Source of the DNA: Thermoproteota archaeon
Lineage (GTDB): Archaea > Korarchaeota > Korarchaeia > Korarchaeales > Korarchaeaceae
Length of the DNA: 64,000 nucleotides
Assembly (NCBI GenBank): GCA_030130125.1
Contig: JARZZM010000001.1
Span: 6,004-70,003, forward strand
Direction: 5' to 3'
Each line of letters begins with the position of its first letter. Within the stretch, counting starts at the first letter, position 1. A program made the position numbers and the translations under genes. Positions 5,464-53,199 of the stretch are shown one piece after another. The notes beneath the pieces were generated by a model. The model was not told where the DNA came from. It ran no database searches and was given only the letters and a program-made list of their open reading frames with translations.

Positions 5464-6482
5464 GAGTGGCCGTATTCGGGGCTTCAGGCTATACCGGTGG
5501 GGAGCTACTGAGAATATTGATCTCCCATCCAGCCTTTACTGTGACAGTTATCACATCTAGGGAGTACGCAGGTAAGCCCGTCTACATAGCGCATCCCCAC
5601 CTGAAGGGGCTGCTCTCGCTGAAATTCGCCAAGCTGGAGGAGGCCTTAAATAAGGAGTTTGATTACGCGCTTCTCGCCCTCCCCCACGGCATCTCTAAAG
5701 AAGTGGTTCCCTTCCTGCTTGAGATAGGGGTGGGAGTGGTCGATCTGGGGGCCGATTTCAGGTTGAAGGACCCTTCCCTCTATGAGACGTGGTATGGGTG
5801 GAAACACCCGAATCCTGAACTGCTGGAAGAGGCGGTTTACGGACTGCCCGAGCTGCACAGGGATGAGATAAGGAATGCAAGGCTTGTGGCCTCACCGGGA
5901 TGCAACGCGACAGCCACGATTCTGGCCTCCGCCCCCTTGGTTAAGCTGGGGGCGAGGAGGGTGCTCGCGGACGTCAAGGTCGGCAGCAGCGAAGCAGGCT
6001 CCAAACCATCGAGGGGGACCCACCATCCCGAGAGGAGCGGAGTCATAAGGCCCTATTCACCCTCAGGGCACAGACATCAAGTGGAGGCGTCACAGGAGCT
6101 CTCCCTGCTAGCAGGGGAGGAGGTGAGGGTCAGCATGGTACCTCACTCCGTCGGTTCCGTCAGGGGGGCCTTCGCCAGCGCGCACGCGGAGCTGGAGGTG
6201 GAAGAGGGAGAGCTTTGGAGGGCATTCGCCAGGTTCTACTCCAAAGAGCCCTTCGTCAGGGTGATGCAGAGGGGATCCTACCCGAATGTGAAGAACGTGC
6301 TGGGGAGCAACTTCGCTGACGTGGGGTTCGCATCGGATCCCTCCCTTCCTAGGGTGTCGGGGTTCGCAGCGATAGATAACCTCATGAAGGGGGCGGCTGG
6401 GCAGGCCATCCAGTCCCTCAACCTGATGGCGGGCTTAGAGGAGACCACCGGTCTGATGCATCCCCCACTCAGTCCAGCGTAG
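5442..6482 (+). CDS. lysY: [LysW]-aminoadipate/glutamate phosphate reductase (ArgC family)
   Basis: GASGYTGGEL, DLGADFRL, ASPGCNAT, AIDNLMKGAAGQA. Confidence 0.92.
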   Translation: MGGAEVLRVAVFGASGYTGGELLRILISHPAFTVTVITSREYAGKPVYIAHPHLKGLLSLKFAKLEEALNKEFDYALLALPHGISKEVVPFLLEIGVGVVDLGADFRLKDPSLYETWYGWKHPNPELLEEAVYGLPELHRDEIRNARLVASPGCNATATILASAPLVKLGARRVLADVKVGSSEAGSKPSRGTHHPERSGVIRPYSPSGHRHQVEASQELSLLAGEEVRVSMVPHSVGSVRGAFASAHAELEVEEGELWRAFARFYSKEPFVRVMQRGSYPNVKNVLGSNFADVGFASDPSLPRVSGFAAIDNLMKGAAGQAIQSLNLMAGLEETTGLMHPPLSPA

Positions 6483-6490
6483 GTGGTGGC

Positions 6491-7273
6491 ATGATAGTTG
6501 TGAAGGTAGGAGGGAGGACCCTCGACAACTTCCCCTCTATAGCCAAGGACTTGGTGAGACATCAGCCGTTCGTGCTAGTCCACGGTGGTGGTGATCTGGT
6601 CACCGAGTACTCTAAGAGGATGGGAGTGGAGCCCAAGATAGTGGTATCGCCCTCAGGTATAAGGAGCAGGTACACCGACGAGGACGAGCTGGAGGTATTC
6701 ACTATGGTGCTTGCTGGCAAGGTCAACAAGGAACTGGTCTCCACGCTCCTCGACTTGGGCATCCAAGCTGTGGGGATTTCTGGCGTGGACGGTCCCACAT
6801 TGATCGCTAGGAGGAAGAGGAGGATAGTCATCTTGGAGAAGGGGAGAAGGCGAGTGATACCCGGGGGCTACACCGGGAAGATAGAGGAGGTCAGGGTGGA
6901 TCTTATCAGCCTCCTCCTAGATTCGGGGTACAGCGCGGTCGTAGCCCCTCTAGCCAGGGGAACGGAAGGCGAGATGCTGAACGTGGACGGTGATCAAGCC
7001 GCTTCCAAGCTCTCTATCGCTCTGGAACCTGCGTACCTCATCTTGCTGTCCGATGTAGAGGGGGTAATGTGGGAGGAGAATGTCGTGAAGAGGCTGACAC
7101 CCGTAGAAGCTGAGGAATTGGCTGCTAAGTTAGGGGCTGGCATGAACCGGAAGCTCATGATGGCCGCGGAGGTGGCGCGGTCTGGGGTGCGGGTCGCCAT
7201 CTCCAGCGGCCTAGTGGACGAACCCGTTACTCATGCCTTAAATGGCGCTGGCACGCATGTCGTTCCAAGCTAG
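6491..7273 (+). CDS. lysZ: [LysW]-aminoadipate/glutamate kinase (ArgB family)
   Basis: VVKVGG, VHGGG, GYTGKI, LNVDGD, GAGMNRKL. Confidence 0.92.
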   Translation: MIVVKVGGRTLDNFPSIAKDLVRHQPFVLVHGGGDLVTEYSKRMGVEPKIVVSPSGIRSRYTDEDELEVFTMVLAGKVNKELVSTLLDLGIQAVGISGVDGPTLIARRKRRIVILEKGRRRVIPGGYTGKIEEVRVDLISLLLDSGYSAVVAPLARGTEGEMLNVDGDQAASKLSIALEPAYLILLSDVEGVMWEENVVKRLTPVEAEELAAKLGAGMNRKLMMAAEVARSGVRVAISSGLVDEPVTHALNGAGTHVVPS

Positions 7274-7323
7274 GAATTTTCCATTATTTTCCGATATTCG
7301 TCCTGTATAGTTCGAGGATAACG

Positions 7324-7331
7324 TTTATATT
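7324..7331 (+). promoter_or_regulatory. Putative internal TATA box for lysWXJK
   Basis: TTTATATT about 32 nt before the lysW ATG, in an AT-rich 90-bp gap inside the cluster. Confidence 0.55.
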
Positions 7332-7362
7332 ATGAGGTATTCGTATCACATGGTGCGAAGAT

Positions 7363-7533
7363 ATGGAGGCCGAGTGTCCTATATGCGGTTCCCCCGTGGA
7401 ACTCCCCGACGATGTCATGGCGGGCGAGCTCCTCGAGTGTCCCTCCTGTGGAGCCACATTAGAGGTATACGAGCAGAATGGGACGTTTCTGCTGAAGGAG
7501 GCTGAGGAAATAGGAGAGGACTGGGGAGAATGA
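7363..7533 (+). CDS. lysW: Amino-group carrier protein LysW (56 aa, absent from the ORF track)
   Basis: Hand translation MEAECPICGSPVELPDDVMAGELLECPSCGATLEVYEQNGTFLLKEAEEIGEDWGE; two CxxC and the diagnostic C-terminal EDWGE; stop overlaps the lysX ATG. Confidence 0.97.
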   Translation: MEAECPICGSPVELPDDVMAGELLECPSCGATLEVYEQNGTFLLKEAEEIGEDWGE

Positions 7534-8363
7534 GGGTAGCCTTGGTCTATGAGAGGTTGAGGGAGGAGGAAAGGCAGCTCATAAGGGCCATTGAGGAGCT
7601 GGGGCACGAGCCAGTACGGTTGCACCTCAGCTCCAAATTCCTCCCGCTTGATCACGGGGAGACCTTCGAGGCCGAAGCGGCCCTGATAAGGGCGATCAGC
7701 GCCACCAAAGCGCACGCGTCGGCTGTGACCTTGTCAAGCTTGGGGGTAAGGGTGGTTAACTCGCCTGGGGTACTGTCGATCTGCGGGAACAAGCTGACAA
7801 CGACGGCCAAACTTTCAGAGGCCGGAATTCCCACGCCAAAGACGGCGGTAGCGTTCTCGCTTGAGGGTGCCTTGGAGGCAGCGAAGTCCATAGGATACCC
7901 CTTAGTGATCAAACCCGTCAACGGGAGCTGGGGTCGACTGGTGTCCCTAGCGCAGGACGAAGAGGAGCTGAGGACCATACTGGAGCATCGGGAGGCGATT
8001 CCCTCCCCCTACTACAGGATCCACTATATTCAGGAATTCATAAGGAAGCCCGGGAGGGACATAAGGGCTTATGGAACCGAGGAGGCCTTCATTACGGCCA
8101 TCTACAGGGTATCAGATCACTGGGTCACCAACACTGCAAGGGGTGCGAAGGCCGTACCGGCTGAGTACAGGGAGGAACTCGCTGATCTCGTTATTAGAAC
8201 CGCTGAAGCGATGGGAGGTGGGTTCCTTGGCGTTGATATAGCTGAGGACGAGGAGAGGGGACTCGTAGTGATAGAGGTGAATGGCGTCACCGAGTTCAAG
8301 AACGCCGCCCGCGTGACAGGCGTTGACATCGCGAGGGAGCTCGTGAGTTACGCGGTGAGATGA
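7530..8363 (+). CDS. lysX: Alpha-aminoadipate--LysW ligase LysX
   Basis: KPVNGSWGRLV, YIQEFIRKPGRDIR, HWVTNTARG, EVNGVTEFKN. Confidence 0.9.
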   Translation: MRVALVYERLREEERQLIRAIEELGHEPVRLHLSSKFLPLDHGETFEAEAALIRAISATKAHASAVTLSSLGVRVVNSPGVLSICGNKLTTTAKLSEAGIPTPKTAVAFSLEGALEAAKSIGYPLVIKPVNGSWGRLVSLAQDEEELRTILEHREAIPSPYYRIHYIQEFIRKPGRDIRAYGTEEAFITAIYRVSDHWVTNTARGAKAVPAEYREELADLVIRTAEAMGGGFLGVDIAEDEERGLVVIEVNGVTEFKNAARVTGVDIARELVSYAVR

Positions 8364-8367
8364 ATAG

Positions 8368-9513
8368 ATGGTCTCACTGATCTCATTCTACGGGTTCAGA
8401 GGACTCAAGCTCGTTAAAGGGGAAGGCCAGTACGTGTGGGACTCGGAGGGTAGACGCTACCTCGATGCCCACACGGGTCACGGAGCTGCTTTCCTCGGGC
8501 ACAGACCTCCTAGAGTGGTGAAGGCCATCCAGGAGCAGATGGACTCGATAATGGTGGTCACCCCTAGCTTCGTGAGCGAATCTATGGAGAGGTGCCTCTC
8601 CTCATTGGAGCGGGTTCTCCCCAAGGGATTGAACCATGTGTACTTCCAGAACAGCGGTACCGAAGCCGTGGAGCTGGCATTGAAGCTAGCCTTCAGAGCA
8701 ACGGGTAGGAAAGAGGTGGTAGCCTTCACGGGGAGCTTCCACGGTAGGACTCTGGGTTCCCTCTCCGCTACTTGGAACCCGAAGTACAGAGAAGGCTATC
8801 CCTTAATCGATGTGAGGTTCGGGAGATTCAACGATTCTTCTTCAGCTGATCTGATAGATGAAGAGGTCGCGGCGGTCATAGTAGAGCCTATCCAAGGAGA
8901 GAGTGGCGTCAGACCTTCGACACCAGAGTTCCTCAGGGCGTTGAGGGAGGCCTGTGAGGAGCACAGCTCCGTCCTGATATTCGATGAGGTCCAGAGCGGG
9001 TTCGGCAGGACCGGCGAGATATGGGCCCACAGGACTAGAGGAGTCGAACCGGACGTCATGACCGCTGGCAAGAGTATTGGTGGTGGGTTTCCTGTCAGCG
9101 TGGTGGCAGCTAAGGAGTGGGTAATCGAATCCCTCAAAGGAGGAGAGCACGGTTCCACCCACGGAGGCAATCCACTGGCCTGCGCTGCTGTCTATGGAGG
9201 TGTATCCACCCTGCTAGAGTATGACGTACCCTCCAGAGCCGCCAAGATGGGTAAGGAATTGATTAAGGGATTGAAGGGCATTGAATCGCGCCTAATAAGG
9301 GACGTGAGGGGAGAAGGACTCATGATCGGGGTTGAACTCAGGGCTGACGTCGGACCCGTCCTCAGGAGGCTGCAACAGAGGGGGATCTTGGCCCTCAAAG
9401 CGGGGAGGACCGTTCTCAGGCTGCTTCCCCCTTATCTGATAACCGAGGAGGACGTTAGGAGGATCGTGGAGGAGGTGGAGAGTGCCCTCATCAACGGAAT
9501 CGGGAGTCGATGA
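8368..9513 (+). CDS. lysJ: [LysW]-aminoadipate semialdehyde/glutamate semialdehyde transaminase
   Basis: Class III PLP motifs SFHGRTLG, DEVQSGFGRTG, GKSIGGG; cluster context. Confidence 0.9.
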   Translation: MVSLISFYGFRGLKLVKGEGQYVWDSEGRRYLDAHTGHGAAFLGHRPPRVVKAIQEQMDSIMVVTPSFVSESMERCLSSLERVLPKGLNHVYFQNSGTEAVELALKLAFRATGRKEVVAFTGSFHGRTLGSLSATWNPKYREGYPLIDVRFGRFNDSSSADLIDEEVAAVIVEPIQGESGVRPSTPEFLRALREACEEHSSVLIFDEVQSGFGRTGEIWAHRTRGVEPDVMTAGKSIGGGFPVSVVAAKEWVIESLKGGEHGSTHGGNPLACAAVYGGVSTLLEYDVPSRAAKMGKELIKGLKGIESRLIRDVRGEGLMIGVELRADVGPVLRRLQQRGILALKAGRTVLRLLPPYLITEEDVRRIVEEVESALINGIGSR

Positions 9514-10513
9514 GATTCTGATCAAACTCTTGAGGGCTTACAGCCCTACCGGCCAGGAGGACAACGCTAGGGACGTAATAGTGGAAATCTGCGAGGATCT
9601 CGGATTGAGGGTCGAGATTGACGAGGTGGGAAATGTTCTCGCTAGTAAAGGAGGAGGTGGAAGGGTGTGGCTCGTCGGTCACTACGACACGGTCCCCGGG
9701 AGGCTTCCCGTCAGGAGAAGCGGAGGCGTGATCTCCGGTAGGGGAGCCGTGGATGCGAAGGGGCCCCTCTCAGCAATGCTGATGGCGGCATCCCTCTCCA
9801 AATCGCCCGTGATGGTCGCGGCCCTCGTTGGTGAGGAGGGGGACAGCAGGGGGGCCAGACACCTGCTTACTAGGGAGCTCCCACCTTTCGTGGTAATAGG
9901 GGAACCTTCTAACAAAACCGGCGTCATAATAGCCTACAGGGGAGGGGCGCACCTGACCTTGAGGTGTAAGGCGGAAGGAGGTCACTCATCATCTCCCGGA
10001 GTATCTGCAGTGGATCTGCTTGTGGAGTCTATCTCAAAAATGAAAGAGGTGGCTCCAGGCGAGAAGTACGATGTTCCCAGCATTACCACCACCATGATAA
10101 GCGGTGGAGAGGCGCCTAACGTTCTTCCAAAGAGGGCCGAGGCAGTACTAGACTTGAGGGTCCCTCCGGGGATCGATCATTCGATGGTACTCGATGAGAT
10201 AAAATCTAAGCTCTCTGAAGGGTGTGAGGTGGCTGCCTTATGGGCTGTTCCACCTGTAGCGGTCAGACCTAGCGAACCAGTTCCTAGGGCGTTAATTAGG
10301 TCCATTATCTCCCTAGGAGGGAAACCCAGGCTCCTGAAGAAATATGGATCTAGCGATATGAACCTGCTTCACGGAAAGGTCTCGAGCATAGCGGCCTACG
10401 GTCCAGGCGATGGGAAGCTGGCTCACACCACCATGGAGTTCGTGAATACTAGGGACTTAGAGTTCGCTGTAGAGGTCTACCTAAAAACGATAGAGTACTT
10501 ATCGAACCTATGA
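9482..10513 (+). CDS. lysK: [LysW]-lysine/ornithine hydrolase (M20 family)
   Basis: GHYDTV, GRGAVDAKG, GEE, GEPS, YGPGD..LAH. Confidence 0.9.
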   Translation: MPSSTESGVDEILIKLLRAYSPTGQEDNARDVIVEICEDLGLRVEIDEVGNVLASKGGGGRVWLVGHYDTVPGRLPVRRSGGVISGRGAVDAKGPLSAMLMAASLSKSPVMVAALVGEEGDSRGARHLLTRELPPFVVIGEPSNKTGVIIAYRGGAHLTLRCKAEGGHSSSPGVSAVDLLVESISKMKEVAPGEKYDVPSITTTMISGGEAPNVLPKRAEAVLDLRVPPGIDHSMVLDEIKSKLSEGCEVAALWAVPPVAVRPSEPVPRALIRSIISLGGKPRLLKKYGSSDMNLLHGKVSSIAAYGPGDGKLAHTTMEFVNTRDLEFAVEVYLKTIEYLSNL

Positions 10514-39678: not shown

Positions 39679-40566
39679 TCAGTGTTCGCCCTCCCTTCTA
39701 CCCTCCTTGGAGAGCCAGTCCTTCACGATCTCCATCAGCTCCATGGGTATCAGGAACTTTGTAGCCTCGGAGGAACCTATCACCTTCAGCCCATCCAAGT
39801 ACTGAAGCTTCATGGTCTTCTCATCCAACGCCTTCGCGACCTCGTCTATGGTCTTGAGGGCCAAGGCGTAGCCCTCAGCCTTGAGTATCTGGGCCTGCCT
39901 CTCACCCTCGGCCTTCAGTATGGCCGCCTGCTTTTCGCCCTCAGCTACCCTTATTGCCGCCTCCTTCTTTCCCTCAGCCTCTGTTACCATGGCCCTCCTG
40001 TTACGTTCAGCAGCCATCTGCTTTATCATGGCTTCCTGGACCGTTTTAGGAGGTAATATCTCCCTGATCTCTACGTTAGTTATCTTGACGCCCCATCGCT
40101 CGGTCACCTCATCGAGCTTAACTCTCAGGATGTTGTTTATCTCATCTCTCTTTGCTAGGACCTCATCAAGCATCATCTCACCTATGACCGCTCTCAGTGT
40201 GGTGGTAGCTATTCCTATTGCCGCCCCCTTGAAGTCCGACACGTTGAGGACGCTCGCCATGGGATCCACCACCTTGTAGTAGACGATGAAGTCTATATCG
40301 GTGGGGGCGTTGTCCTTCGTTATGCAGGTCTGATGCGGCACATCGAAGTAGCTCTCCCTCAGGTCTATCCATATTATTTGGTCAATTATAGGAACCCTGA
40401 ATACTATACCGGGCCCTTTCACCCCTAGAAACCTGCCCAGCCTCAGAATTACAAGCCTCTTGAACTCAGGCACTATTTTAATTGCCGAAGCTAGGAACAG
40501 GATCAGGATAAAGACGACAACAGCTATAAGGAACTCTGACAGACCCAAAACTACAGCTTGGATCAT
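39679..40566 (-). CDS. SPFH/stomatin (band 7) protein
   Basis: RLGRF, IDLRE, ITKDN, TLRAVIG, WGVKI..VEI; coiled coil with AEG repeats. Confidence 0.9.
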   Translation of the reverse strand: MIQAVVLGLSEFLIAVVVFILILFLASAIKIVPEFKRLVILRLGRFLGVKGPGIVFRVPIIDQIIWIDLRESYFDVPHQTCITKDNAPTDIDFIVYYKVVDPMASVLNVSDFKGAAIGIATTTLRAVIGEMMLDEVLAKRDEINNILRVKLDEVTERWGVKITNVEIREILPPKTVQEAMIKQMAAERNRRAMVTEAEGKKEAAIRVAEGEKQAAILKAEGERQAQILKAEGYALALKTIDEVAKALDEKTMKLQYLDGLKVIGSSEATKFLIPMELMEIVKDWLSKEGRREGEH

Positions 40567-42124: not shown

Positions 42125-43828
42125 ATGAGTGGGAAAGATTGGATAATCGTTATAGTCCTCCTGATCGTGGGGCTCCTCATAGGGTATTTTGCCGCGGGCC
42201 CCGGTAAGACAACCACTGTCACCGTGACACAGACCTCTGTCAAGACCGTGACCGTGACCCGGACTGCTGGCGCCCCTCCAGCTCCCACCACGACTAAGAC
42301 GACCACCACCCAGCCCAAGGCCCGGATGAAGACCCCCGCTGATACCCTGATAATAGCTATGGATACCAGCGATGCGGTCTCTATGGATCCGGCTAGGGCT
42401 TATGAGTTCACCTCATGCTTCGTTGTCAACCAGCTTTATGATAAGCTTGTGGATTTCGAGCTTCCTGATCTGGTCAATGTTAAGCCCGAGGTCGCTGAGA
42501 AGTGGGAAGTCAGCGAAGATGGCAAGGTTTGGACCTTCCATATAAGGAAGGGTATTAAGTTCGCTAGCGGTAATCCCCTCACCGCCGATGATGTCGTTTA
42601 CTCCCTCCAGAGGGTAATCAAGCTTAAGCAGACCGCTTCTTGGGTTCTTACCCAGTTCGTCTCCACTCCCGAGCAGATAGAGAAGATCGATGACTACACC
42701 GTCAAGATAACCTTAGATAAGCCAGTAGCTCCGAGCTTCTTCCTCGCTACCCTGACGTTCACGACTTCCGCAGTCGTAGATAAGCAGGTGGTCGAGGCCC
42801 ATGCGAAGAACGGGGACATGGGAAGCGATTGGATGACCGATCACAGCGCCGGTAGCGGTCCGTTCGTCCTAGAGAAGTGGGATAGGGAGGCCGAAATAGT
42901 CCTTAAGGCCAACCCATACTACTGGAAGCCAGGTCAGCCAGCTGTGAAGAGGGTGATCATAAAGCATGTTCCCGAGCCCACGGATCAGCTCCTCCTGATA
43001 AAGAAGGGGGATGTTGACATAGCAACTGACTTGACCGCAGAGCAGGTCAAACAGGTTGAGGGTACGCCCGGAATAAACGTGATAAAGGTGGAGAGGACTC
43101 ACATAGTCTACTTGGGAATGAACGTTGCCGTGAAACCGTTGGACAAGGAAGAGGTTAGGGATGCGATCAGGTACTGTATAGACTATGACAGCATAATAAA
43201 CGACATCCTGCTTGGAGCAGCGATAAAGTGGCAGACTGTCATTCCAAAGGGTCTGCTCGGAGCGAACCCGAAGACCCCCTACAAGAAGGATGTGGCCAAG
43301 GCCAAGGAACTCTTAGCTAAGGCCGGTGTGGCCAATGGATTCACCATAGAGCTGACCACGCCGCCGACCTATCCTCAGATAGACATAGCAACCAAGATAC
43401 AGGCAGACCTGGCCGAGTGCGGCATCAAGGTGAAGATCGTGCAGATGACCCAGTCCGAGATGTACGAGAAGTATAGAAAGCAAGGTCTTCAGCTTGTGCT
43501 CGCAGGTTGGGGATCTGACTATCCGGATCCGGACAACAACGCTAAGGCCTTCGGTGACTACAGGGTGAAACAGCTCGCTTGGAGGAACTCTTGGTACGAT
43601 GACCACGCCGCCGACCTCGCTGAGAAGGCGGCCGTGGAGTTCGACAACAGTAAGAGGAAGCAGATGTACCTCGAGCTCACTGACTACATACTCGACCACG
43701 GACCCTACGCGATCCTCTACCAGACCCTCGCCCAGCACGTAGCGAGGGACTACGTGAAGAACTATCTGCCCGATCCGACGTTCTTCCTCGAGGACCTCTC
43801 TAAGGTGTCAAAGGCTGGAGGGAGCTGA
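42125..43828 (+). CDS. dppA: Oligopeptide/dipeptide ABC substrate-binding protein (family 5), second system
   Basis: MDPA.AY, LYDKL, KFASGNPLTADDV.YS, GSGPF, GWGSDYPDPD. Confidence 0.9.
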   Translation: MSGKDWIIVIVLLIVGLLIGYFAAGPGKTTTVTVTQTSVKTVTVTRTAGAPPAPTTTKTTTTQPKARMKTPADTLIIAMDTSDAVSMDPARAYEFTSCFVVNQLYDKLVDFELPDLVNVKPEVAEKWEVSEDGKVWTFHIRKGIKFASGNPLTADDVVYSLQRVIKLKQTASWVLTQFVSTPEQIEKIDDYTVKITLDKPVAPSFFLATLTFTTSAVVDKQVVEAHAKNGDMGSDWMTDHSAGSGPFVLEKWDREAEIVLKANPYYWKPGQPAVKRVIIKHVPEPTDQLLLIKKGDVDIATDLTAEQVKQVEGTPGINVIKVERTHIVYLGMNVAVKPLDKEEVRDAIRYCIDYDSIINDILLGAAIKWQTVIPKGLLGANPKTPYKKDVAKAKELLAKAGVANGFTIELTTPPTYPQIDIATKIQADLAECGIKVKIVQMTQSEMYEKYRKQGLQLVLAGWGSDYPDPDNNAKAFGDYRVKQLAWRNSWYDDHAADLAEKAAVEFDNSKRKQMYLELTDYILDHGPYAILYQTLAQHVARDYVKNYLPDPTFFLEDLSKVSKAGGS

Positions 43829-43830
43829 GA

Positions 43831-43853
43831 CTCCCCTTCCCTTTTTCTCTTCC
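43831..43853 (+). terminator. C/T-rich pyrimidine tract after dppA2; putative internal terminator
   Basis: CTCCCCTTCCCTTTTTCTCTTCC right after the stop. Confidence 0.5.
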
Positions 43854-43865
43854 GGGGGGTAGCTG

Positions 43866-44879
43866 TTGGACCTTAAGACGTACATATTGAGGCGTCTGGC
43901 CCTAATGTTGTTCGTCCTATTCGGAATAATTGTGATTACGTTTATCGTGTCTCATGTGATTCCTGCTGATCCGATAGGGGCCATTCTGGGACCTCAAGCT
44001 CCTCCCGAGCTTATAGAGAAGGTTAGAAGGGAGTGGGGATTCGATAAGCCCCTTCCCGAGCAGTTCGTTGACTACATGGTGAACTTACTCCACGGTAACT
44101 TAGGCAAGTCCATAAGAACGAATAAGCCGGTGGCAGAGGACCTCATGAAGTTCTTTCCCGCGACGATCGAACTGGCGACGGCGGCGATGATAGTTGCCAT
44201 AGTGATAGGGATACCCCTCGGTATAATCTCGGCCGTGAAGAAGGACAAGTGGCCCGACCACATCTCCAGAATATTCGCCCTTATGGGAGTGAGCATGCCC
44301 GTCTTCTGGCTGGGTCTCATCCTGCTCTTCGTCCTCTACTACCAGCTGGGGATATTCCCAGGGCCTGGTAGGCTGGATCCAGGGATAGAGACCCCACCCA
44401 GAATAACTGGTATCTTAACACTCGATAGCCTGATTACCGGGAACTTCGAGGCGTTCACGAATGCCGTATGGCATCTCATACTCCCCTCATTCGTCTTGGG
44501 CTACTACGCATCTGCATCAATCACTAGGATCACTAGGACATCCTTACTCGAGGTCATGACCCAAGACTTCATAAGGACGGCCAGAGCTAAGGGCCTGTCC
44601 GAGAGGGTCGTGCTGTTCAGGCACGCCCTGAGGAACGCGCTCATACCCACTACGACCGTCATAGGGATGGCTTACGGAAGCCTGCTAGAGGGTGCGATAC
44701 TCACGGAGACCATATTCGCTTGGCCCGGATTGGGGAGGTACTCAACAGGTGCGTTCCTGTCCGTGGATTTCTTGGCGGTTATGGGGTCCACCTTGCTGAT
44801 AGCGGTGATCTACTCAGTGGCCAACTTGGTCGTGGACATACTCTACGCGTTCCTCGATCCGAGGATAAGGTACGCCTGA
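43866..44879 (+). CDS. dppB: Peptide ABC permease
   Basis: GFDKPL, GNLGKS, RTARAKGL...HALRNALIP, DPRIRY. Confidence 0.9.
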   Translation: MDLKTYILRRLALMLFVLFGIIVITFIVSHVIPADPIGAILGPQAPPELIEKVRREWGFDKPLPEQFVDYMVNLLHGNLGKSIRTNKPVAEDLMKFFPATIELATAAMIVAIVIGIPLGIISAVKKDKWPDHISRIFALMGVSMPVFWLGLILLFVLYYQLGIFPGPGRLDPGIETPPRITGILTLDSLITGNFEAFTNAVWHLILPSFVLGYYASASITRITRTSLLEVMTQDFIRTARAKGLSERVVLFRHALRNALIPTTTVIGMAYGSLLEGAILTETIFAWPGLGRYSTGAFLSVDFLAVMGSTLLIAVIYSVANLVVDILYAFLDPRIRYA

Positions 44880-44891
44880 GGAGGTGCTCTC

Positions 44892-45776
44892 ATGAACGTA
44901 GGGGAGAAGATCAGAGGTCTGATGGAGTACTTCAGATCCGAGGACTTCAAGATAACCCTTATACTGGTGAAGAAGAGCCCTCTCACGGTCTTGGGACTCG
45001 CTCTGACCATATTTCTAGTGTTGGTGGCGATTTTCGCACCCTTCATAGCACCCTACGATCCCATAAAGCAGGACCTCAAGAACAGGCTCCAGCCCCCCAG
45101 CTGGGAGCACCCCTTCGGCACCGATCAGCTCGGAAGGGATATATTCAGCAGGGTGGTCTGGGGATCTAGGATCTCACTGTTTATAGCCCTTATAGTTGTC
45201 GCTATCTCATTCACCGTCGGAACTACCATAGGCATAATCTCCGGCTACTTCGGGGGTAAGGTCGACGAGGTTCTTATGAGGATCACGGACATGTTCATGG
45301 CATTCCCCAGACTGGTACTCGCCTTGGCCGTGGCTGCCGCTCTAGGACCCGGGCTCTTCAACACCATGCTCGCCATAGCCTTCGTCTCTTGGGTCTACTA
45401 CGCCAGGCTGGCTAGGGCCAGCACCCTCCAGATAAGGGAGGAGGTGTATATAGAGGCAGCTAGGGCGATAGGGGCCAGCGACAAGAGGATACTATTTCTC
45501 CATGTCCTCCCGATGGTCATCGCGCCGGTAGTAGTTCAAGCCACCCTTGACATGGGCGGGACCATCCTCACCGCAGCCGGCCTCGGTTTCCTCGGACTGG
45601 GTGTCCAGCCCCCCACCCCGGAGTGGGGAGTCATGGTCAGCGAGGGGAGGAGGTTCATAACTGAGCAGTGGTGGGTTTCCACATTCCCCGGTTTCGCGAT
45701 ACTCTTGGCAACGCTGGGCTTCAACCTGCTGGGCGACGGGATAAACGACATACTGAATGTCAGGGCGAGGAGGTGA
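44892..45776 (+). CDS. dppC: Peptide ABC permease
   Basis: HPFGTDQLGRDIFSRV, YIEAARAIGA, PEWG. Confidence 0.9.
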   Translation: MNVGEKIRGLMEYFRSEDFKITLILVKKSPLTVLGLALTIFLVLVAIFAPFIAPYDPIKQDLKNRLQPPSWEHPFGTDQLGRDIFSRVVWGSRISLFIALIVVAISFTVGTTIGIISGYFGGKVDEVLMRITDMFMAFPRLVLALAVAAALGPGLFNTMLAIAFVSWVYYARLARASTLQIREEVYIEAARAIGASDKRILFLHVLPMVIAPVVVQATLDMGGTILTAAGLGFLGLGVQPPTPEWGVMVSEGRRFITEQWWVSTFPGFAILLATLGFNLLGDGINDILNVRARR

Positions 45777-45780
45777 TTGA

Positions 45781-46770
45781 GTGAGCGGCAACGGGAAAGG
45801 AGAGAATCTCTTGGAGATCAGGGATCTGTACGTTCAATTCCACACCCTGAGAGGCATAGTCAAGGCCATAGATGGCGTCAACTTGGAGGTGGGACATGGC
45901 GAGGTCTTGGGTCTCGTGGGGGAGACTGGCAGCGGCAAGACGGTGACGGGCCTCAGTATACTCAGGTTACTGGAGCAAAACGCCGAGATCACCGGAGGGG
46001 AGATAATATTTCAGGGGAGAGACCTGCTCAAGCTGCCCCTCAAGGAGATCCTGAAGATAAGGGGGAGAGATATCTCAATGATTTTCCAAGAGCCGAAGGC
46101 CGCCCTGAACCCGGTCATGCAGGTGGGTGATCAGGTGGCCGAGTCCTTCCTAGTGCACGAGGAGATCTCCAAGAAGGAGGCGAGGGAGAGAGTCCTAGAG
46201 ATATTCAGGAGGGTGGGCCTCCCCGACCCCGGAAGGGTGTACAAGAGCTATCCCCACGAGCTCAGCGGGGGAATGGCTCAGAGGGTCGTGATATCGATGG
46301 CGCTCGCCCTGAAGCCGAAGCTGCTCATAGCCGACGAACCTACCTCCGCTCTGGATGTGACCATACAGGCCCAGATAATGGATCTCTTTCGCGAGCTGAT
46401 AGATGAGATGGGAACCAGCGTCATCTACATAACCCACGACATGGCCCTAGCTGCGGAGATAAGCGACAGGATCGCGGTGATGTACGCCGGTAGAATAGTG
46501 GAGGTGGCCGACACTGAAACGATATTCGAGAATCCCCTACATCCCTATACCCAGGGGCTGCTGAAATCCATACCCAAGCCTAGATACAGGGGGAAGCTCT
46601 TCTCGATGGAAGGGGAGATACCCCCCCTGATAAATCCGCCCTCGGGCTGCAGGTTCCATCCTCGCTGCCCGAAGAGATTCGAACCGTGCGACAAGGAGGT
46701 GCCCAAGCTGATAGAGGTAGAACCGGGGCATAAGGTGGCCTGCTTCCTGTTCGGGGGTGCGTCCAAATGA
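45781..46770 (+). CDS. dppD: Peptide ABC ATPase
   Basis: [28 protein letters not shown]. Confidence 0.9.
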
Positions 46771-47762
46771 TGCTGGAGGTTCAGGATCTCAGGAAGTACT
46801 TCCCCGTCCGCGGTGGCGTGATGATGAGGGTGATCGGTCACGTGAAGGCGGTAGACGGGGTCTCCATATCCATAGAGAAGGGAGAGATCTTCGGCCTGGT
46901 GGGCGAGTCGGGAAGCGGTAAGACGACCTTGGGCAGGACGGTCCTCAAGCTGACCGAGCCCACTGGTGGTAGGATAATCTTCGATGGGAGGGACATAACC
47001 GATCTCTCGGGCAAGGAACTCATTCCCCTGAGGAGGGAGATGCAGATAGTCTTCCAGGACCCGTATAAGGCCCTTCATCCGAGGAAGAGGGTGAAGGACA
47101 TAGTTGGTGAACCCCTGATCATACACGAGGGGGCCAGCGATACGGAGGTGAGGAAAAGGGTAGCGGAGATACTCAAGCTGGTGGGACTGAATGTAGAGCA
47201 CATGGACAGGTACCCGCACGAGTTCTCGGGAGGGCAAAGGCAGAGAATAGTCATAGCTAGGGCCCTGATCCTGAGGCCCAAGTTCATGGTGCTCGATGAA
47301 CCTACCTCTGCCTTGGATGTGAGCGTTCAGGCTAAGATACTCAACCTGCTGAGCGATCTCAAGGAACAGTTCGACCTCACCTTCCTGCTGATAAGCCACA
47401 ACTTGGCAGTAGTACAGCACATGAGCAACAGGATCGGCGTGATGTACCTCGGGAAGCTCATGGAGGTAGCTTCCTCGCAGGAACTCTTCGAGAAACCGCT
47501 TCATCCCTACACGAAGGCCCTGATATCGGCCATCCCAATACCCGACCCTAAGCTGGCCAAGAAGAAGAGGAAGATGACCCTCAGGGGAGAGATACCAAGT
47601 CCCCTGCACCCGCCCTCAGGCTGCAGGTTCCACACTAGGTGCCCGTTCGCCGAGGAGATCTGCGAGAGGGAGGAACCACCTCTGAGGGAGGTGGAGCCAG
47701 GCCATTGGGTGGCGTGTCACTTCTGGGATGAGTTGAGGGAGGTGGAAGTGTTAAATGCCTGA
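46767..47762 (+). CDS. dppF: Peptide ABC ATPase
   Basis: [28 protein letters not shown]. Confidence 0.9.
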
Positions 47763-47884: not shown

Positions 47885-49165
47885 TCATCGTTCAGCTCTT
47901 CGGCTGACCTCCTCCAACGACTTTTCGATTATGGAGAGGGCCTCCTCCACCTGTTCAGCCGTTATCGTTATCGGTGGCGTCAGCTTGATCACATTGTGAT
48001 GCCTGCCCACGGTTATGGCCAGCAAGCCGTTTCTGAAGAGGGCGTCCTTCAGCTCAGACGCTAATCTCTTCGAGGGCCTCCCACCCTCCAGTATCTCAAT
48101 TCCCTGCACGCATCCGATCCCCCGGGCATCGGCTACATGATCGTATCTGCTGACGAACTCCCTCAACCCTCTCATCATCTCTTCTCCTCTTCTCAGGGCA
48201 TTTTCCAAGAGATTTTCCTCTCTGATCGCCTCTATAGTCGCTAAGGCGGCCAAAACTCCCAAGTAGTGGCCAGCGTATGTGCCGAGGCTGCCGCCGCTAC
48301 ACAGATACCACTCCTCCACGAGATCGCCCCTGAAGGCAATAGCCGCTAGGGGAAGACCACCTGCTATTCCCTTGCCCATGACCACGATGTCGGGCTCCAC
48401 TCCGTGATGCTCTATCCCGAACCACCTACCCGTCCTTCCGAAACCCGTGTAGACCTCGTCGACTATGAGTAGAGCGCCTGTCCTCTCCGCAATCCCCCTG
48501 AGACCCCTGAAGAAGCTGGAGGGTGGGAATAGTATACCCCCATGAGACTGGAGCGGTTCCACTATGATCCCAGCCAAGTCCTCGGGTTCCACGGCCCTAC
48601 CGAGGACCTCCTCCTCTATGAAGTTCAGTACGGCATGAGAGCACTCCTCGCAGTTATCAGCCTTTAGAGGACATCTGAAACAGTTAGGGTAGGGCGCATA
48701 CACAGCTTCAGAGGTCCGAGGTGCGACCCGCCTCATCCCCTCCGTGGGAGAGGATTGCAGAGCATATCCAGTGAGCCCGTGATAGGCACCGTAAAAGGAG
48801 AGGATGACCTGCCTTCCGGTGACGAACTTGGCCAGCTGAATAGCGAAATCACTCGCCTCGCTTCCAGTGGTGGCATACGCTATGGAAGCATTCTCGACGG
48901 GAACGAGAGACCTGAGTTCCTCCCCGAGCTCCAAGAAAGGCTCGTTCGGGGCCAGTAAACCTGAGAAACCCGTTATCTTCCCCACCCCCTCCTTCACTTT
49001 CGACACTACTTTGGGGTGGGCTTGACCGAGGGAGGTAGCTGCCCCGCTGAAATCCAAGAACCTCCTCCCTTCTCTCGTCCATATTTCCGCCTTAAACCCT
49101 CTTTCGACGACGATTGGAAAGGAGGGAGGGCACTTGAATACCCTCGGGTAGAAATCTTCCAGCAT
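47885..49165 (-). CDS. Class III PLP enzyme (GabT-like aminotransferase or amino-acid racemase)
   Basis: AYHGLT, EPLQSHGG, DEVYTGFGRTG, MGKGIAGGLPL. Confidence 0.8.
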   Translation of the reverse strand: MLEDFYPRVFKCPPSFPIVVERGFKAEIWTREGRRFLDFSGAATSLGQAHPKVVSKVKEGVGKITGFSGLLAPNEPFLELGEELRSLVPVENASIAYATTGSEASDFAIQLAKFVTGRQVILSFYGAYHGLTGYALQSSPTEGMRRVAPRTSEAVYAPYPNCFRCPLKADNCEECSHAVLNFIEEEVLGRAVEPEDLAGIIVEPLQSHGGILFPPSSFFRGLRGIAERTGALLIVDEVYTGFGRTGRWFGIEHHGVEPDIVVMGKGIAGGLPLAAIAFRGDLVEEWYLCSGGSLGTYAGHYLGVLAALATIEAIREENLLENALRRGEEMMRGLREFVSRYDHVADARGIGCVQGIEILEGGRPSKRLASELKDALFRNGLLAITVGRHHNVIKLTPPITITAEQVEEALSIIEKSLEEVSRRAER

Positions 49166-49205: not shown

Positions 49206-49832
49206 TCAGCCTCCGGCCATGTAGATGGCCTCCTCAGCTATCTGGACCGCGTGGTCCGCCATCCTCTCGAGGTATCTGAGGATGAGTGTCATGGCCACAG
49301 CGCAAGCTGGGACCTTCTCAACACCAGTCAGGACTCTTTCTCTCAGGTAAGACTCGTAGGCCCCATCCACCTTGTCATCCATCTCCATAACCTTCTTGGC
49401 CAACTCTATATCCCTAGTCTCCACCGCCTTCAGGGCCTCCTTCACCATGGTCTCAGTTATCTCAGCTGGCTCAACCACGAGTTGGATGTCGCATTGGCTC
49501 ATGTCCCTGAACAGGACTAGGGTCTGGGCTATGTTCCTAGCGTACCTGCCAAGCCTGACCAGCCCGTAACTTATCTCCATGAGGGATATGAGGGTTCTCA
49601 GGTCCGACGCCATAGGCTGGAACCTGGCTAGGATCTCACTTATCTTGATTCTTAACTGTCCGTGGGTGAAGGACAGGATCTGGGCTCCCCTATCAACCTC
49701 CTCCAAGACGGTAGTAGGATCTGCTCTGCCTAGGAAGGCCTCGACGCACTTCTTGGTTAGTGAGAGGGATAACTCGCTCGACTTGACGACCTCGGAGAAG
49801 GCGGATTTTATCTCGGCATCCAGTAACGCCAT
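49206..49832 (-). CDS. phoU: PhoU-family helical regulator (ATG 49832 preferred)
   Basis: ARFQPMASDLR, MDDKVD, RYLERMADHAVQIAE. Confidence 0.88.
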   Translation of the reverse strand: MALLDAEIKSAFSEVVKSSELSLSLTKKCVEAFLGRADPTTVLEEVDRGAQILSFTHGQLRIKISEILARFQPMASDLRTLISLMEISYGLVRLGRYARNIAQTLVLFRDMSQCDIQLVVEPAEITETMVKEALKAVETRDIELAKKVMEMDDKVDGAYESYLRERVLTGVEKVPACAVAMTLILRYLERMADHAVQIAEEAIYMAGG

Positions 49833-49905
49833 TTTCACATATCCCTTGGACGAACTTACCCGCCCGATTTTATTATGTTTCCGCATGCTCAGGTAGGGGA
49901 TCGAT

Positions 49906-50241
49906 ATGAGCGAGGAGGGATCTTCTGGCTTAGTATTTGTGGCCTTCATGTTCATAGGAATGGGCGTAGGTTATCTGCTCGGGAACATAGCTGCCGGGCT
50001 CTTCGTGGGGATGGGGGTGGGGTTCTTGGCCATGGCCTACCTCAAACCTAGGGAGAAGGGGATGGACCTGAGGAAGGAGCCTTGGGGCTCGGTGGCACTT
50101 ACTTTGGTGGGCTTGGGCTTCATCTTGGGTGGGGCATCGCTGCTTCTGGGCTTCGAGATACCTTGGGATAAGTTGGGAGGGATGTTCCTCATACTGATGG
50201 GGTTGGCCTTCCTGGCCATGGCTCTGGGAAGGAGGGGTTAG
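49906..50241 (+). CDS. Small Gly-rich four-TM membrane protein
   Basis: Two hydrophobic hairpins joined by a basic linker. Confidence 0.7.
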   Translation: MSEEGSSGLVFVAFMFIGMGVGYLLGNIAAGLFVGMGVGFLAMAYLKPREKGMDLRKEPWGSVALTLVGLGFILGGASLLLGFEIPWDKLGGMFLILMGLAFLAMALGRRG

Positions 50242-50243
50242 AG

Positions 50244-51398
50244 CTAGCCGAATATGGCCCTACCGAAGCTTTCCCTCTCCCTCAGTAGCCTGTATCTGCC
50301 GCCCTCAAGGGCGACGACCGCTGGTAACGGTCTGAGGTTGTATCTGCTGGCCATGGAGAACCCGTAGGCCCCGACATCGGCAATTACCACGAGGTCCCCC
50401 TCCCTGACTCTCGGCAGGTCGTACTCGCCGAAGAAGTCCGCTGACTCGCAGACAGGACCGGCGATCAGCACTTTCTCCTCAGGACCCTCGGACTCCACCA
50501 GAATCCTATGTTTGGCTCCATAGAGCGCGGGCCTGAGGAGGTCGTTCATTCCAGCATCCAGCAAAACCCACTTTCTCCCACCTATCTCCTTTACGTAGTT
50601 CACCCTAGCAACGAGATAACCCGCGTCTCCAACTATGTACCTGCCGGATTCCACGAATATGTGAACCCCTAACTCCCTAGACGCCTCACACACGATTTCA
50701 GCGTACTCTCCTAGGGGGAACTCTCCCGACCCTTCATAGGATATGCCCAAACCGCCTCCCAGATCAAGCACCTCCACCCCACCGAACTGCTCAACTAGGG
50801 ATCGGAGCACATCCAACGCGTTGATAAAGGGTTCAACGCTCATTATCTGACTCCCCACGTGTGTGTGAAACCCCCTCGTATTCATATCACCTCTCAAGGA
50901 CCTGAGGAGTGAGAGGGCCCTTTCAGGGGGGAGACCGAACTTCGTTCCTGGCCCCGCCGTCACGAGGCTCGGATGAGCCCCAGCTCCCAGTCCGGGGTTC
51001 ACCCTCACCATGACATCCACTCCTCCCACATCTCTAAGGGTTCTAGCCTCGGATTCGCTCTCGAGTGAGACGGTGGCTCCATAGCTAGCCGCTTCCGCGA
51101 GGTCCTGCCTTGAGGGGCTCGGACCCACGAGTACCACCTTCTCAGGGGGGACACCAGCCCATCTGGCGAGCATCACGCCGTAACCGGAGGGAACGGTGGC
51201 TCCAGAACCTAAGGAGGAGAGCATCCTCACGAGCTCCGGCTCGTGATTGGCCTTGTATGCGTATGCAATCGTATGGGGGCATTTCAGAGCGTCATTCAAC
51301 CTCAGGAAATTCTCTCTAATCCTGTCCATGTCTAGCAGGTAAATGGGGGTCCCGAACTCCTCCACCACATCTCTAACATCGATCCCGGATACTCTCAA
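50244..51398 (-). CDS. lysA: Diaminopimelate decarboxylase (fold type III PLP)
   Basis: YAYKAN, HTHVGSQI, DLGGGLG, ESGRYIV, DAGMNDLLRPALYG, GPVCESAD, GAYGFSMASRYN. Confidence 0.85.
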   Translation of the reverse strand: MRVSGIDVRDVVEEFGTPIYLLDMDRIRENFLRLNDALKCPHTIAYAYKANHEPELVRMLSSLGSGATVPSGYGVMLARWAGVPPEKVVLVGPSPSRQDLAEAASYGATVSLESESEARTLRDVGGVDVMVRVNPGLGAGAHPSLVTAGPGTKFGLPPERALSLLRSLRGDMNTRGFHTHVGSQIMSVEPFINALDVLRSLVEQFGGVEVLDLGGGLGISYEGSGEFPLGEYAEIVCEASRELGVHIFVESGRYIVGDAGYLVARVNYVKEIGGRKWVLLDAGMNDLLRPALYGAKHRILVESEGPEEKVLIAGPVCESADFFGEYDLPRVREGDLVVIADVGAYGFSMASRYNLRPLPAVVALEGGRYRLLRERESFGRAIFG

Positions 51399-51490
51399 GG
51401 GCTCACCCTACGGCACAGAAACGTACCTGTACCCGTTAATTATCCTGATCCGTCGACACGCCTCGTCCACACCGACACTTCACCCTTTAT

Positions 51491-52090
51491 ATGTTGGTGG
51501 GGAACCCCTCCCCCGGTGGTCCATTGAGACTCAACGTCAAGGTCATAGCACCAGTGATCATGGCCGCCATCATGCTTATCGGAGTGATCAGCATGAGCTC
51601 CCCACCCTCCCCCTTGGGGGGTGAGGAGTGGCCCCTCCCCCCAGCAGACACGCCTCTCGAGAACATAACCTCCAACATGAACATCTCCAATTTCGTCTTC
51701 TTCGGGGGTCAGCCCGTAGCGAGCTTGGGAACTGGGTTGGACTTCCCGCTGGGGAGCACGGCCTTCTACTACGTTGGAGCTTACAAGAACAATACCTTCG
51801 TGGCATTCGTTGTGGCCAAACTTCCAGATCCGCAGTACTCGGTTCAGTTTGGCGGAAGGGCCCTGAACTCCCTGAAGGAGAACCTCCCTGAGGAGAATGT
51901 GAGGTACTTGGTTACCAACGAGGGAGGCTTCTTGCAGTACCAAGGCACCAATCAGACCCTAGTGCTGTGGTACGGTCACTCTTGGTACTTCGAGATCATG
52001 GCGGGAAAGGGAGGGGACTTGGGGAGGGAAGCAGTTCAGGCGATTAAGAGGGCCATCTACGAGGCTATACAGAAGGTTCAGAGGGCCTGA
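51491..52090 (+). CDS. Hypothetical secreted/surface protein
   Basis: N-terminal hydrophobic segment, Pro-rich linker, N-glycosylation sequons (NIT, NIS, NNT, NQT). Confidence 0.6.
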   Translation: MLVGNPSPGGPLRLNVKVIAPVIMAAIMLIGVISMSSPPSPLGGEEWPLPPADTPLENITSNMNISNFVFFGGQPVASLGTGLDFPLGSTAFYYVGAYKNNTFVAFVVAKLPDPQYSVQFGGRALNSLKENLPEENVRYLVTNEGGFLQYQGTNQTLVLWYGHSWYFEIMAGKGGDLGREAVQAIKRAIYEAIQKVQRA

Positions 52091-53199
52091 ACCTTACCTC
52101 CCTCCTCGAAAACTGCCTTCAGCTTGAGCTTCTCCTCCTTCACCTTGAGATTACCCAACCCGGGCCCATCCGGCACTGTCCTGTACCCGTCCTCGTAACC
52201 GGCTCCACCCTCGACGAAGTCCTCCTTGAGCGATATGTCGGAGTCCAGATCCGTCGTTACCAAGTTCCTCGTGGCCGCAGCGAAGTGGACTCCAGCGGTT
52301 ATACTGACCCCTCCCTCCATCATGCACCCTATCATGTTGGGTATACCTGCCGCCTCGCTTATCGCAGCTATCCTCCTAGCCTTGAGGAGGCCTCCCGCCT
52401 TCGTCAGCTTTATGTTGATGTAGTCGGCGGCTCCCATCTCCACAACTTCGAGCGCGTCCTCAGGGGTGTGCACGGACTCGTCAGCCATTATCGGGATTGG
52501 GCTCATACTTGTGAGAACGGCCATGCCCTCGAGGTCATCCCACCTAACGGGCTGCTCCGCCAGCTCCAAGTCGTACCTGTCCATCTCGGTGAGGGCCCTC
52601 ATGGCCTCTTTGACGGTCCATCCCTGATTAGCGTCTATCCTCAGCCTTATGTCCTTCCCCACAGCGTCCCTCACCGCCCTGACCCTGGCCACATCCTCCT
52701 CCACTCCGGTTCCCACCTTGAGCTTGATGACCCTGAACCCCCTCTCAACTATCCTCAGAGCCTCCTCGGCCATCTCCTCCGGGCTCTTTATCCCTATGGT
52801 GAAGTCCGTCTCGACCCTGTCCCTGTACCCGCCCAGCAGGTCCCTCACCGTGACTCCGAGGATCTTCCCCTTGAGATCGAAGACAGCCGTTTCTAGGGCG
52901 AATTTCGCTGAATTGTTACCCAAGATTGCCTTGTCCATCTTCTCCTCTATTCTCTCGACATCCATTGGGTCCTCCCCTATCACCGCCGGGGCTAGGGTGT
53001 GCATGGCAGCTACTATGGTGTGCTCGCTCTCACCGATTATCCTCCTCGCTGGTGAGGCCTCGCCCCACCCAACTCTGCCCTCATCATCGAGTACCTTTAC
53101 AACTACATCCGTGCTGCTCGTGGAAGTGCCCAGCGAGATGGTAAACGGCTGTAAGTAGGGAAGATCGACGGTATAGACCTCTATCCTCTTGATGGACAT
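52078..53199 (-). CDS. Dipeptide epimerase (enolase superfamily, L-Ala-D/L-Glu epimerase-like)
   Basis: KLKVG (KxK), DANQ, EQP, DES, NIKLTKAGG, GCMME and terminal DLD motif. Confidence 0.85.
   Translation of the reverse strand: MSIKRIEVYTVDLPYLQPFTISLGTSTSSTDVVVKVLDDEGRVGWGEASPARRIIGESEHTIVAAMHTLAPAVIGEDPMDVERIEEKMDKAILGNNSAKFALETAVFDLKGKILGVTVRDLLGGYRDRVETDFTIGIKSPEEMAEEALRIVERGFRVIKLKVGTGVEEDVARVRAVRDAVGKDIRLRIDANQGWTVKEAMRALTEMDRYDLELAEQPVRWDDLEGMAVLTSMSPIPIMADESVHTPEDALEVVEMGAADYINIKLTKAGGLLKARRIAAISEAAGIPNMIGCMMEGGVSITAGVHFAAATRNLVTTDLDSDISLKEDFVEGGAGYEDGYRTVPDGPGLGNLKVKEEKLKLKAVFEEGGKVQAL

What the first reader, a model, noticed from the sequence alone, without database searches (positions are those of the whole stretch)
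50244..51398. DAP decarboxylase in a genome that makes lysine via LysW/aminoadipate
Seen: full LysA motif set including DAGMNDLLRPALYG and CESAD, 40 kb from a complete LysW cluster, with no dap genes in the window. Known: the AAA and DAP routes are normally alternatives, and meso-DAP is a bacterial peptidoglycan residue. Inferred: if dapA/B/L/F are absent, LysA scavenges external meso-DAP or decarboxylates another substrate such as a D-amino acid.
Basis: partly seen in the sequence, partly recalled or inferred. Interest (0 to 1): 0.55.

Follow-up and report, generated by a model that had tools for sequence, protein, structure and literature searches.

The report
Archaeal salvage enzyme for bacterial DAP
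A hot-vent archaeon that has no bacterial-type cell wall and makes lysine by another route keeps an enzyme that most likely turns diaminopimelate, a building block of bacterial cell walls, into lysine, which suggests it feeds on bacterial wall debris.

Summary
Confirmed. 50244-51398(-) is an intact LysA-family decarboxylase in a 96%-complete Ca. Korarchaeum genome. The genome has a LysW/aminoadipate route but no DapB, DapF or Ddh; DapB is missing in all 36 family genomes searched. The protein keeps the DAP-binding residues R289, Y293 and E318, which the D-Orn/D-Lys decarboxylase DokD lacks, and is under purifying selection. It belongs to an archaeal subfamily with a fixed motif change (T68/G74 for D-or-E/E). 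Members in other archaea lie beside wall-recycling genes (MurQ, PBP4, YkfC-like NlpC/P60, D-aminopeptidase, Dpp importers) or directly before a full LysW operon. Here it sits beside a Dpp importer, a dipeptide epimerase and a racemase-like enzyme. Best reading (0.7): salvage of meso-DAP from bacterial wall peptides into lysine. Gap: this genome lacks every wall-peptide hydrolase family I searched, so how DAP is freed is unknown. No activity or expression data. lysA beside LysW has a precedent (Deinococcus radiodurans), and this scan reached the same reading on another korarchaeon (e1-5198388).

The parts
50244..51398 (-). LysA-family (fold III PLP) decarboxylase, 384 aa, archaeal 'GAT' subfamily; catalytic K49, H180, S183, E250, R253, C317, Y345; DAP-side R289, Y293, E318
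51403..51407 (-). GGTGA ribosome-binding site, 4 nt before the TTG start
   Evidence: sequence; orthologs start at the same place (384 aa)
52078..53199 (-). Enolase-superfamily dipeptide epimerase; lacks the Arg of Ala-Glu epimerases (FTISLGT vs FKTALRT)
   Evidence: kept in 18/20 genus genomes; orthologs next to NlpC/P60 and MurQ/PBP4
47885..49165 (-). Class III PLP enzyme closest to solved Ala/Ser and broad-substrate racemases, with His where they have the catalytic Asp
42125..47762 (+). dppABCDF dipeptide/oligopeptide ABC importer; binding protein closest to DppA structures
49206..49955 (-). PhoU-like gene, the most constant neighbour of lysA, probably unrelated in function
49906..50241 (+). 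111-aa membrane protein of no known family, convergent on lysA
51491..52090 (+). Protein with an N-terminal hydrophobic stretch, no known family, divergent from lysA
4591..10513 (+). LysW cluster: argX-type ligase (L-M-V-GF signature), lysY, lysZ, lysW, bifunctional-type lysX (Y-I-T-NA), lysJ, lysK

Best explanation
The gene is a working meso-diaminopimelate decarboxylase used for salvage, not biosynthesis. Shown: the cell cannot make DAP by any known route and has the genes to make lysine through LysW; the enzyme keeps a DAP-type active site. Inferred: wall peptides or free DAP released by bacteria are taken up, probably through the adjacent Dpp importer. D-residues are inverted by the dipeptide epimerase and the racemase-like enzyme, and LysA removes the carboxyl at the D-centre of meso-DAP to give L-lysine, sparing the ATP-costly LysW route or feeding amino-acid fermentation. 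Speculative: lacking an LD-carboxypeptidase, Korarchaeum may import the dipeptide DAP-D-Ala, epimerise it to DAP-L-Ala and cut it with an ordinary M20 peptidase.
For: Family cut-off and fold: TM 0.92 to H. pylori and M. jannaschii DAPDC at 33-34% identity, DokD 0.87-0.90 at 23-24%. R289, Y293, E318 and S183 match E. coli and methanococcal LysA; Salmonella DokD has D, no Tyr, D and D there. dN/dS 0.06-0.11. DapB 0/36 and DapF 1/36 family genomes. The gene can be lost: it is cleanly missing at the syntenic site in G009, and G003 has an in-frame stop, which fits an accessory role. Same-subfamily genes elsewhere: with PBP4, epimerase, a NagK-like kinase and MurQ; near PBP4; head-to-head with an SH3-NlpC/P60 whose best structures are YkfC gamma-D-Glu-DAP amidases and beside a Dpp importer (PMC4600125); beside an M55 D-aminopeptidase; directly before lysM-lysW-lysX-HCS-hacAB-hicdh-lysY-lysZ. 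In a sister genus without LysX or HCS, a canonical LysA sits next to an LD-carboxypeptidase.
Against: This genome lacks NlpC/P60, S66, M14, M55, S12 and S58 families and shows no PBP4 or MurQ ortholog, so no known enzyme here frees DAP from the gamma-D-Glu bond. lysA is flanked by opposite-strand genes and is not co-transcribed with the epimerase; its most constant neighbour is phoU. The epimerase lacks the Arg typical of Ala-D-Glu epimerases. The T68/G74 change removes two acidic residues near the PLP lysine, with unknown effect. Neighbourhood examples come from a few related lineages and are not independent counts. No expression or activity data.
Confidence: 0.7

Rival explanations
1. It decarboxylates another D-centre substrate (D-Lys, D-Orn, meso-lanthionine, D-aminopimelate), working with the racemase-like neighbour as in the Salmonella DokD-racemase-permease locus, to give diamines.
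For: A racemase-like enzyme and an epimerase are neighbours; DokD is a structural relative and sits by a racemase; a subfamily member has CV instead of CE.
Against: DokD score 96 bits vs cut-off 700; the distal-carboxylate residues R289 and Y293 are kept in 77/77 and 76/77 subfamily members and are absent in DokD.
Confidence: 0.12
2. The T68/G74 change has weakened or altered the chemistry, so the protein is a slow or re-purposed enzyme (or a PLP/DAP-binding protein), as in antizyme inhibitors.
For: The two acidic residues are invariant in 96/96 canonical relatives and replaced in 77/77 subfamily members; from my own knowledge the equivalent D88/E94 of ornithine decarboxylase hold the PLP lysine during turnover.
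Against: All other catalytic residues are invariant; purifying selection; the change is shared across several archaeal lineages in lysine or wall-recycling operons.
Confidence: 0.08
3. Korarchaeum makes DAP de novo with unrecognised replacements for DapB and DapF, and the LysW cluster mainly serves ornithine/arginine, as in haloarchaea.
For: Aspartokinase, Asd and two DHDPS-family genes exist; one subfamily member lies after AK-asd; a non-homologous DapF2 is known (PMC13759103).
Against: No DapB in 36 genomes; both DHDPS-like genes are below the cut-off and unlinked to lysA; lysX has the aminoadipate-accepting Y-I-T-NA signature; the HCS-hacAB-hicdh set is present in 19/20 genus genomes and its orthologs lie inside LysW operons; lysA can be lost.
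Confidence: 0.06
4. It is a polyamine-pathway L-ornithine or L-arginine decarboxylase.
For: It is the only fold III decarboxylase in the genome, and no pyruvoyl ArgDC (PF01862) is found.
Against: speA and nspC scores are 44 and 41 bits; the genome has two SpeD-family genes, the crenarchaeal pattern of SAM plus arginine decarboxylase (assignment from own knowledge); CE rather than CD and the RPxxY helix are DAP-type.
Confidence: 0.04

Closest known systems
meso-Diaminopimelate decarboxylase LysA (TIGR01048; structures 1TWI, 2P3E, 2YXX, 2QGH)
   Same: Fold, PLP lysine, HxGSQ, GGG loop, ExGR, RPxxY helix, CE loop, GAY motif; passes the family cut-off.
   Different: No upstream DAP pathway; T68/G74 replace D-or-E/E; about 30-40 aa shorter than most; long branch in the tree.
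Bacillus subtilis dpp-ykfABC and Bacteroides YkfC/YkfB stem-peptide recycling (PMC4600125)
   Same: Dpp-type importer and enolase-family dipeptide epimerase next to the gene; YkfC-like and LdcA-like genes beside relatives in other archaea.
   Different: Host has no peptidoglycan; this genome has no YkfC, YkfA/LdcA or MpaA; epimerase lacks the Glu-binding Arg; LysA is part of the neighbourhood.
Deinococcus radiodurans lysA alongside the LysW/aminoadipate route
   Same: lysA-like gene together with LysW-route lysine synthesis, with no DapB or DapF in the controls.
   Different: A bacterium with its own ornithine-type wall; I did not examine its gene context or substrate.
Salmonella D-ornithine/D-lysine decarboxylase DokD (NF052544; 6N2H)
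   Same: Same fold, acts on a D-centre, racemase nearby.
   Different: 24% identity; lacks R289, Y293, E318 and S183 equivalents.
Archaeal peptidoglycan hydrolases (PMC12352652)
   Same: Archaea carrying genes aimed at bacterial walls; that paper leaves scavenging versus killing open.
   Different: This is a cytoplasmic downstream step; no lytic hydrolase was found here.

Membership tests
LysA / DAPDC (TIGR01048) | Score above curated cut-off | tested here: met
   358.5 > 297.9 bits; note DokD reaches 295.9, so the cut-off alone is weak
LysA / DAPDC (TIGR01048) | Fold III barrel plus beta domain | tested here: met
   pLDDT 91.7; TM 0.92 to 2QGH and 1TWI
LysA / DAPDC (TIGR01048) | PLP and catalytic residues K, H, GGG, E, R, C, Y | tested here: met
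   K49, H180, G214-216, E250, R253, C317, Y345
LysA / DAPDC (TIGR01048) | Specificity helix R..Y and CE glutamate | tested here: met
   R289, Y293, E318 as in E. coli LysA, unlike DokD
LysA / DAPDC (TIGR01048) | Conserved acidic pair in G-A-[D/E]-x-x-S-x-x-E (conserved, not known to define substrate) | tested here: not met
   T68 and G74, fixed in 77/77 subfamily members; hence filed as a variant
LysA / DAPDC (TIGR01048) | Decarboxylates meso-DAP to L-lysine | not testable with these tools
   needs an assay
De novo DAP lysine pathway | DapB reductase | tested here: not met
   0/36 genomes
De novo DAP lysine pathway | DapF or Ddh | tested here: not met
De novo DAP lysine pathway | DapA synthase | tested here: inconclusive
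   two DHDPS-family genes at 199.9 and 201.6 bits vs 206.15
De novo DAP lysine pathway | DapL or DapD/C/E | not tested
   not searched; DapB absence already breaks all known routes
LysW/aminoadipate lysine pathway | lysW, X, Y, Z, J, K with an AAA-accepting LysX | tested here: met
   signature Y-I-T-NA
LysW/aminoadipate lysine pathway | Homocitrate synthase, homoaconitase, homoisocitrate dehydrogenase | tested here: inconclusive
   four-gene set on C44, below HCS cut-offs, but orthologs lie in LysW operons
DokD (NF052544) | Family score and active-site residues | tested here: not met
   96 vs 700 bits
ykfABC / mpaA-ycjG stem-peptide recycling system | gamma-D-Glu-DAP amidase (NlpC/P60 or M14) | tested here: not met
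ykfABC / mpaA-ycjG stem-peptide recycling system | LD-carboxypeptidase S66 | tested here: not met
   0/21 genus genomes
ykfABC / mpaA-ycjG stem-peptide recycling system | Ala-D/L-Glu epimerase | tested here: inconclusive
   closest structure is B. subtilis YkfB, but the Arg is missing, as in the E. faecalis dipeptide epimerase
ykfABC / mpaA-ycjG stem-peptide recycling system | Peptide ABC importer | tested here: met
   dppABCDF adjacent; ligand unknown

The most novel reading that the evidence does not exclude
An archaea-specific LysA subfamily (T68/G74) is a marker of a peptidoglycan-eating habit spread over several wall-less hot-spring and vent lineages (Korarchaeum, Thermoprotei, some Nitrososphaerota). 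Korarchaeum frees DAP without any known wall amidase, for example by epimerising DAP-D-Ala or with an undescribed hydrolase.
Probability: 0.3. Interest if true: 0.75.

Novelty: new variant of a known kind. Interest (0 to 1): 0.5.

Why it matters
Whether archaea use bacterial cell walls as food is an open question (PMC12352652, Discussion). A decarboxylase that can only get its substrate from bacteria gives a direct, cheap test and a marker gene. It would also explain part of the diet of Korarchaeum, which has not been grown alone (own knowledge), and it warns that automatic annotation will wrongly credit these genomes with DAP-route lysine synthesis. The enzyme itself is a familiar kind, and orphan lysA genes have precedent, which caps the surprise.

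Tried and rejected
Assembly gap as cause of missing dap genes: rejected, the single-contig G012 genome also lacks DapB and DapF. Contamination or recent transfer: rejected, GC 57% and GC3 66% match neighbours and orthologs are in 17/20 genus genomes. Searches for a DAP-releasing hydrolase in this genome (NlpC/P60, S66, M14, M55, beta-lactamase/S12, S58, PBP4, MurQ) found none. The 199-aa neighbour gave only hypothetical clusters in the Atlas. The promoter scan was at chance level and models bacterial promoters. The AU test did not reject a tree joining Korarchaeum LysA with the sister-genus LysA (p 0.059), so I make no claim on donor or order of transfer. The first tree run failed and the second had one row in the wrong strand; one search is the one used. 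The DokD structure paper and the K. cryptofilum genome paper were not held. Literature searches found no paper on Korarchaeum lysA. No complex prediction was run.

Full report
Observation. It passes the curated lysA cut-off (358.5 vs 297.9 bits) and scores far lower on DokD (96), SpeA (44) and NspC (41). Its closest solved relatives are DAP decarboxylases. The AlphaFold model (pLDDT 91.7) matches H. pylori and M. jannaschii LysA at TM 0.92. It is the only fold III decarboxylase in the genome. The LysW cluster is at 4591-10513, 39.7 kb away.

No DAP supply. The genome (96% complete) has no DapB, DapF or Ddh. Across 36 genomes of the family, one of them a single contig, DapB is found in none and DapF in one. 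Two DHDPS-family genes fall just under the DapA cut-off and are unlinked to lysA. From established pathway knowledge, all DAP routes need DapB. DapL and DapD were not searched.

The aminoadipate route looks complete. The second ligase has the signature Y-I-T-NA, the bifunctional AAA/Glu type, and the first has V and GF, the ArgX type (against PMC12998189). A homocitrate-synthase-like gene with hacAB and a dehydrogenase lies on contig C44. It is below HCS cut-offs, but its orthologs sit inside LysW operons in G030 and two other archaea, and 19/20 genus genomes give a match.

The gene is old, selected and dispensable. Orthologs occur in 17/20 genus genomes; dN/dS against four relatives is 0.06-0.11; base composition matches the neighbours. 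G009 lacks it at the exact syntenic site and G003 has an in-frame stop, which may be an assembly error.

Active site. K49, H180, S183, the glycine loop, E250, R253, C317 and Y345 are invariant. The specificity helix and cysteine loop set substrate choice in this fold (PMC7857480). There the protein has R289, Y293 and E318, like E. coli and methanococcal LysA. Salmonella DokD, fetched and confirmed as such, has SDSQH in place of RPALY, CD for CE and GDQ for GSQ. One departure is real: T68 and G74 replace an acidic pair. In 175 aligned relatives, all 77 with T68 have G74 and all 96 with D or E have E74. These sequences, with two 'GAA' rows, form one side of a branch at 98/98 support. An AU test does not reject joining the Korarchaeum genes with the canonical LysA of a sister genus (p 0.059), so I draw no conclusion on origin.

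Neighbourhood here. On one side lie phoU, a class III PLP enzyme whose best structures are archaeal Ala/Ser and broad-substrate racemases and a dppABCDF importer. On the other lies a dipeptide epimerase closest to B. subtilis YkfB but without its Arg. This set stays together, with rearrangements, through the genus. lysA is flanked by opposite-strand genes here; in G015 and G005 phoU, lysA and the class III gene run in series, and in G003 lysA is followed by the class III gene. Within one genus synteny may be plain inheritance, and phoU is the most constant neighbour.

Neighbourhoods elsewhere are more telling. One has PBP4 directly upstream, then an epimerase 51% identical to the window's, a NagK-like kinase and MurQ. 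A second has PBP4 4 kb away. Three, two of them labelled Nitrososphaerota, are head-to-head with an SH3-NlpC/P60 gene and beside a Dpp importer. The best structures for that gene are the YkfC enzymes, which cut gamma-D-Glu-DAP (PMC4600125). One abuts an M55 D-aminopeptidase. Two closely related ones stand just before a whole LysW operon. One follows AK-asd and a peptidase. Two further look-ups showed nothing relevant; one of these is a close relative of the second case, so I count ten, not eleven. In G030 the ortholog of the window's epimerase is head-to-head with an NlpC/P60 gene. In sister genus g3, which lacks LysX and HCS, a canonical LysA adjoins an LD-carboxypeptidase.

The gap. This genome has no NlpC/P60, S66, M14, M55, S12 or S58 peptidase and no PBP4 or MurQ ortholog. 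It cannot be called a member of the ykfABC system. It would depend on DAP or short peptides freed by other cells, or on an unknown hydrolase. The epimerase is in 18/20 Korarchaeum genomes with S66 in none, whereas g3 has S66 in 2/5 and no such epimerase. This suggests, only as a hypothesis, that epimerising DAP-D-Ala replaces the LD-carboxypeptidase; M20 peptidases are present.

Rivals. A D-Lys/D-Orn role is disfavoured by the active site. A polyamine role is disfavoured by scores, residues and two SpeD-family genes, though PvlArgDC is absent. A hidden de novo route is disfavoured by the LysX signature and by loss of lysA. An impaired enzyme is disfavoured by selection, but the motif change is unexplained.

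Relation to what is known. It works like LysA and meets every sequence and structure test but the acidic pair, so it is a variant. lysA alongside LysW has precedent in D. radiodurans (no DapB or DapF in controls). I found no paper on the korarchaeal gene. PMC12352652 leaves open whether archaea scavenge peptidoglycan. This scan noted the same idea on another korarchaeon (e1-5198388) and on this window (e1-5274028), and a lysA-led salvage operon in Marinimicrobia (e1-2403377). I had reached the reading before seeing them and do not count them as support.

Verdict. Observation confirmed; salvage of meso-DAP is the best explanation (0.7); new variant of a known kind; interest 0.5.

Noticed in passing
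window 47885-49165 (-): Racemase-like class III enzyme has EPxQSH, with His at the position of the catalytic Asp of solved archaeal racemases, in every Korarchaeum ortholog read; found in 15/20 genus genomes and no other genus of the family.
   Followed up: partly
window 54406-56376 (+): 656-aa KamA-family radical SAM protein, below the lysine, glutamate and arginine 2,3-aminomutase cut-offs, 97% conserved in marine relatives; could consume lysine but the substrate is unknown.
   Followed up: no
window 39679-41840 (-): nfeD-stomatin pair; the same pair is inserted in or follows the LysW/homocitrate operon in three other archaea (L083, L131, L133).
   Followed up: no
L014:1243-5286 (G000 contig C44): Divergent homocitrate-synthase-like gene with hacAB and a dehydrogenase, below all NCBIfam HCS cut-offs yet embedded in LysW operons elsewhere: a likely unnamed archaeal homocitrate synthase clade.
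   Followed up: partly
L102:3567-11329: Complete-looking archaeal wall-recycling locus (MurQ, NagK-like kinase, dipeptide epimerase, PBP4, LysA) beside dsrAB/dsrC and a homocitrate synthase-like gene.
   Followed up: partly
L080:3568-7242 and L068:7971-10271 (G022): Only DapF in the family, among amidohydrolases and an M20 deacylase, on the same contig as LD-carboxypeptidase and lysA in a genome without DapB or LysX: suggests salvage of LL-DAP as well.
   Followed up: partly
L137:5083-11266: Aspartokinase, asd, a 334-aa protein of no family, a PepT-like M20 and a T68/G74 LysA in one run.
   Followed up: partly
L145:9665-12209, L146:8573-10824, L147:7843-8886 (G030): Three further divergent fold III decarboxylases, each after a conserved 385-aa unknown gene; two precede a class III aminotransferase.
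   Followed up: no
L148:7378-12207 and L149:5645-11852: Second, sub-cut-off LysA-like gene in genus g3 in a run with an amidohydrolase, a homolog of G000 C18:64396-65337 and a DHDPS-family gene.
   Followed up: no
L077:7945-12963, L078, L085: K. cryptofilum-like genomes carry the LysW cluster without argX, while marine members have both ligases.
   Followed up: partly
window 1721-4575 (+): XPB-like helicase and Bax1 endonuclease pair directly upstream of the LysW cluster.
   Followed up: no
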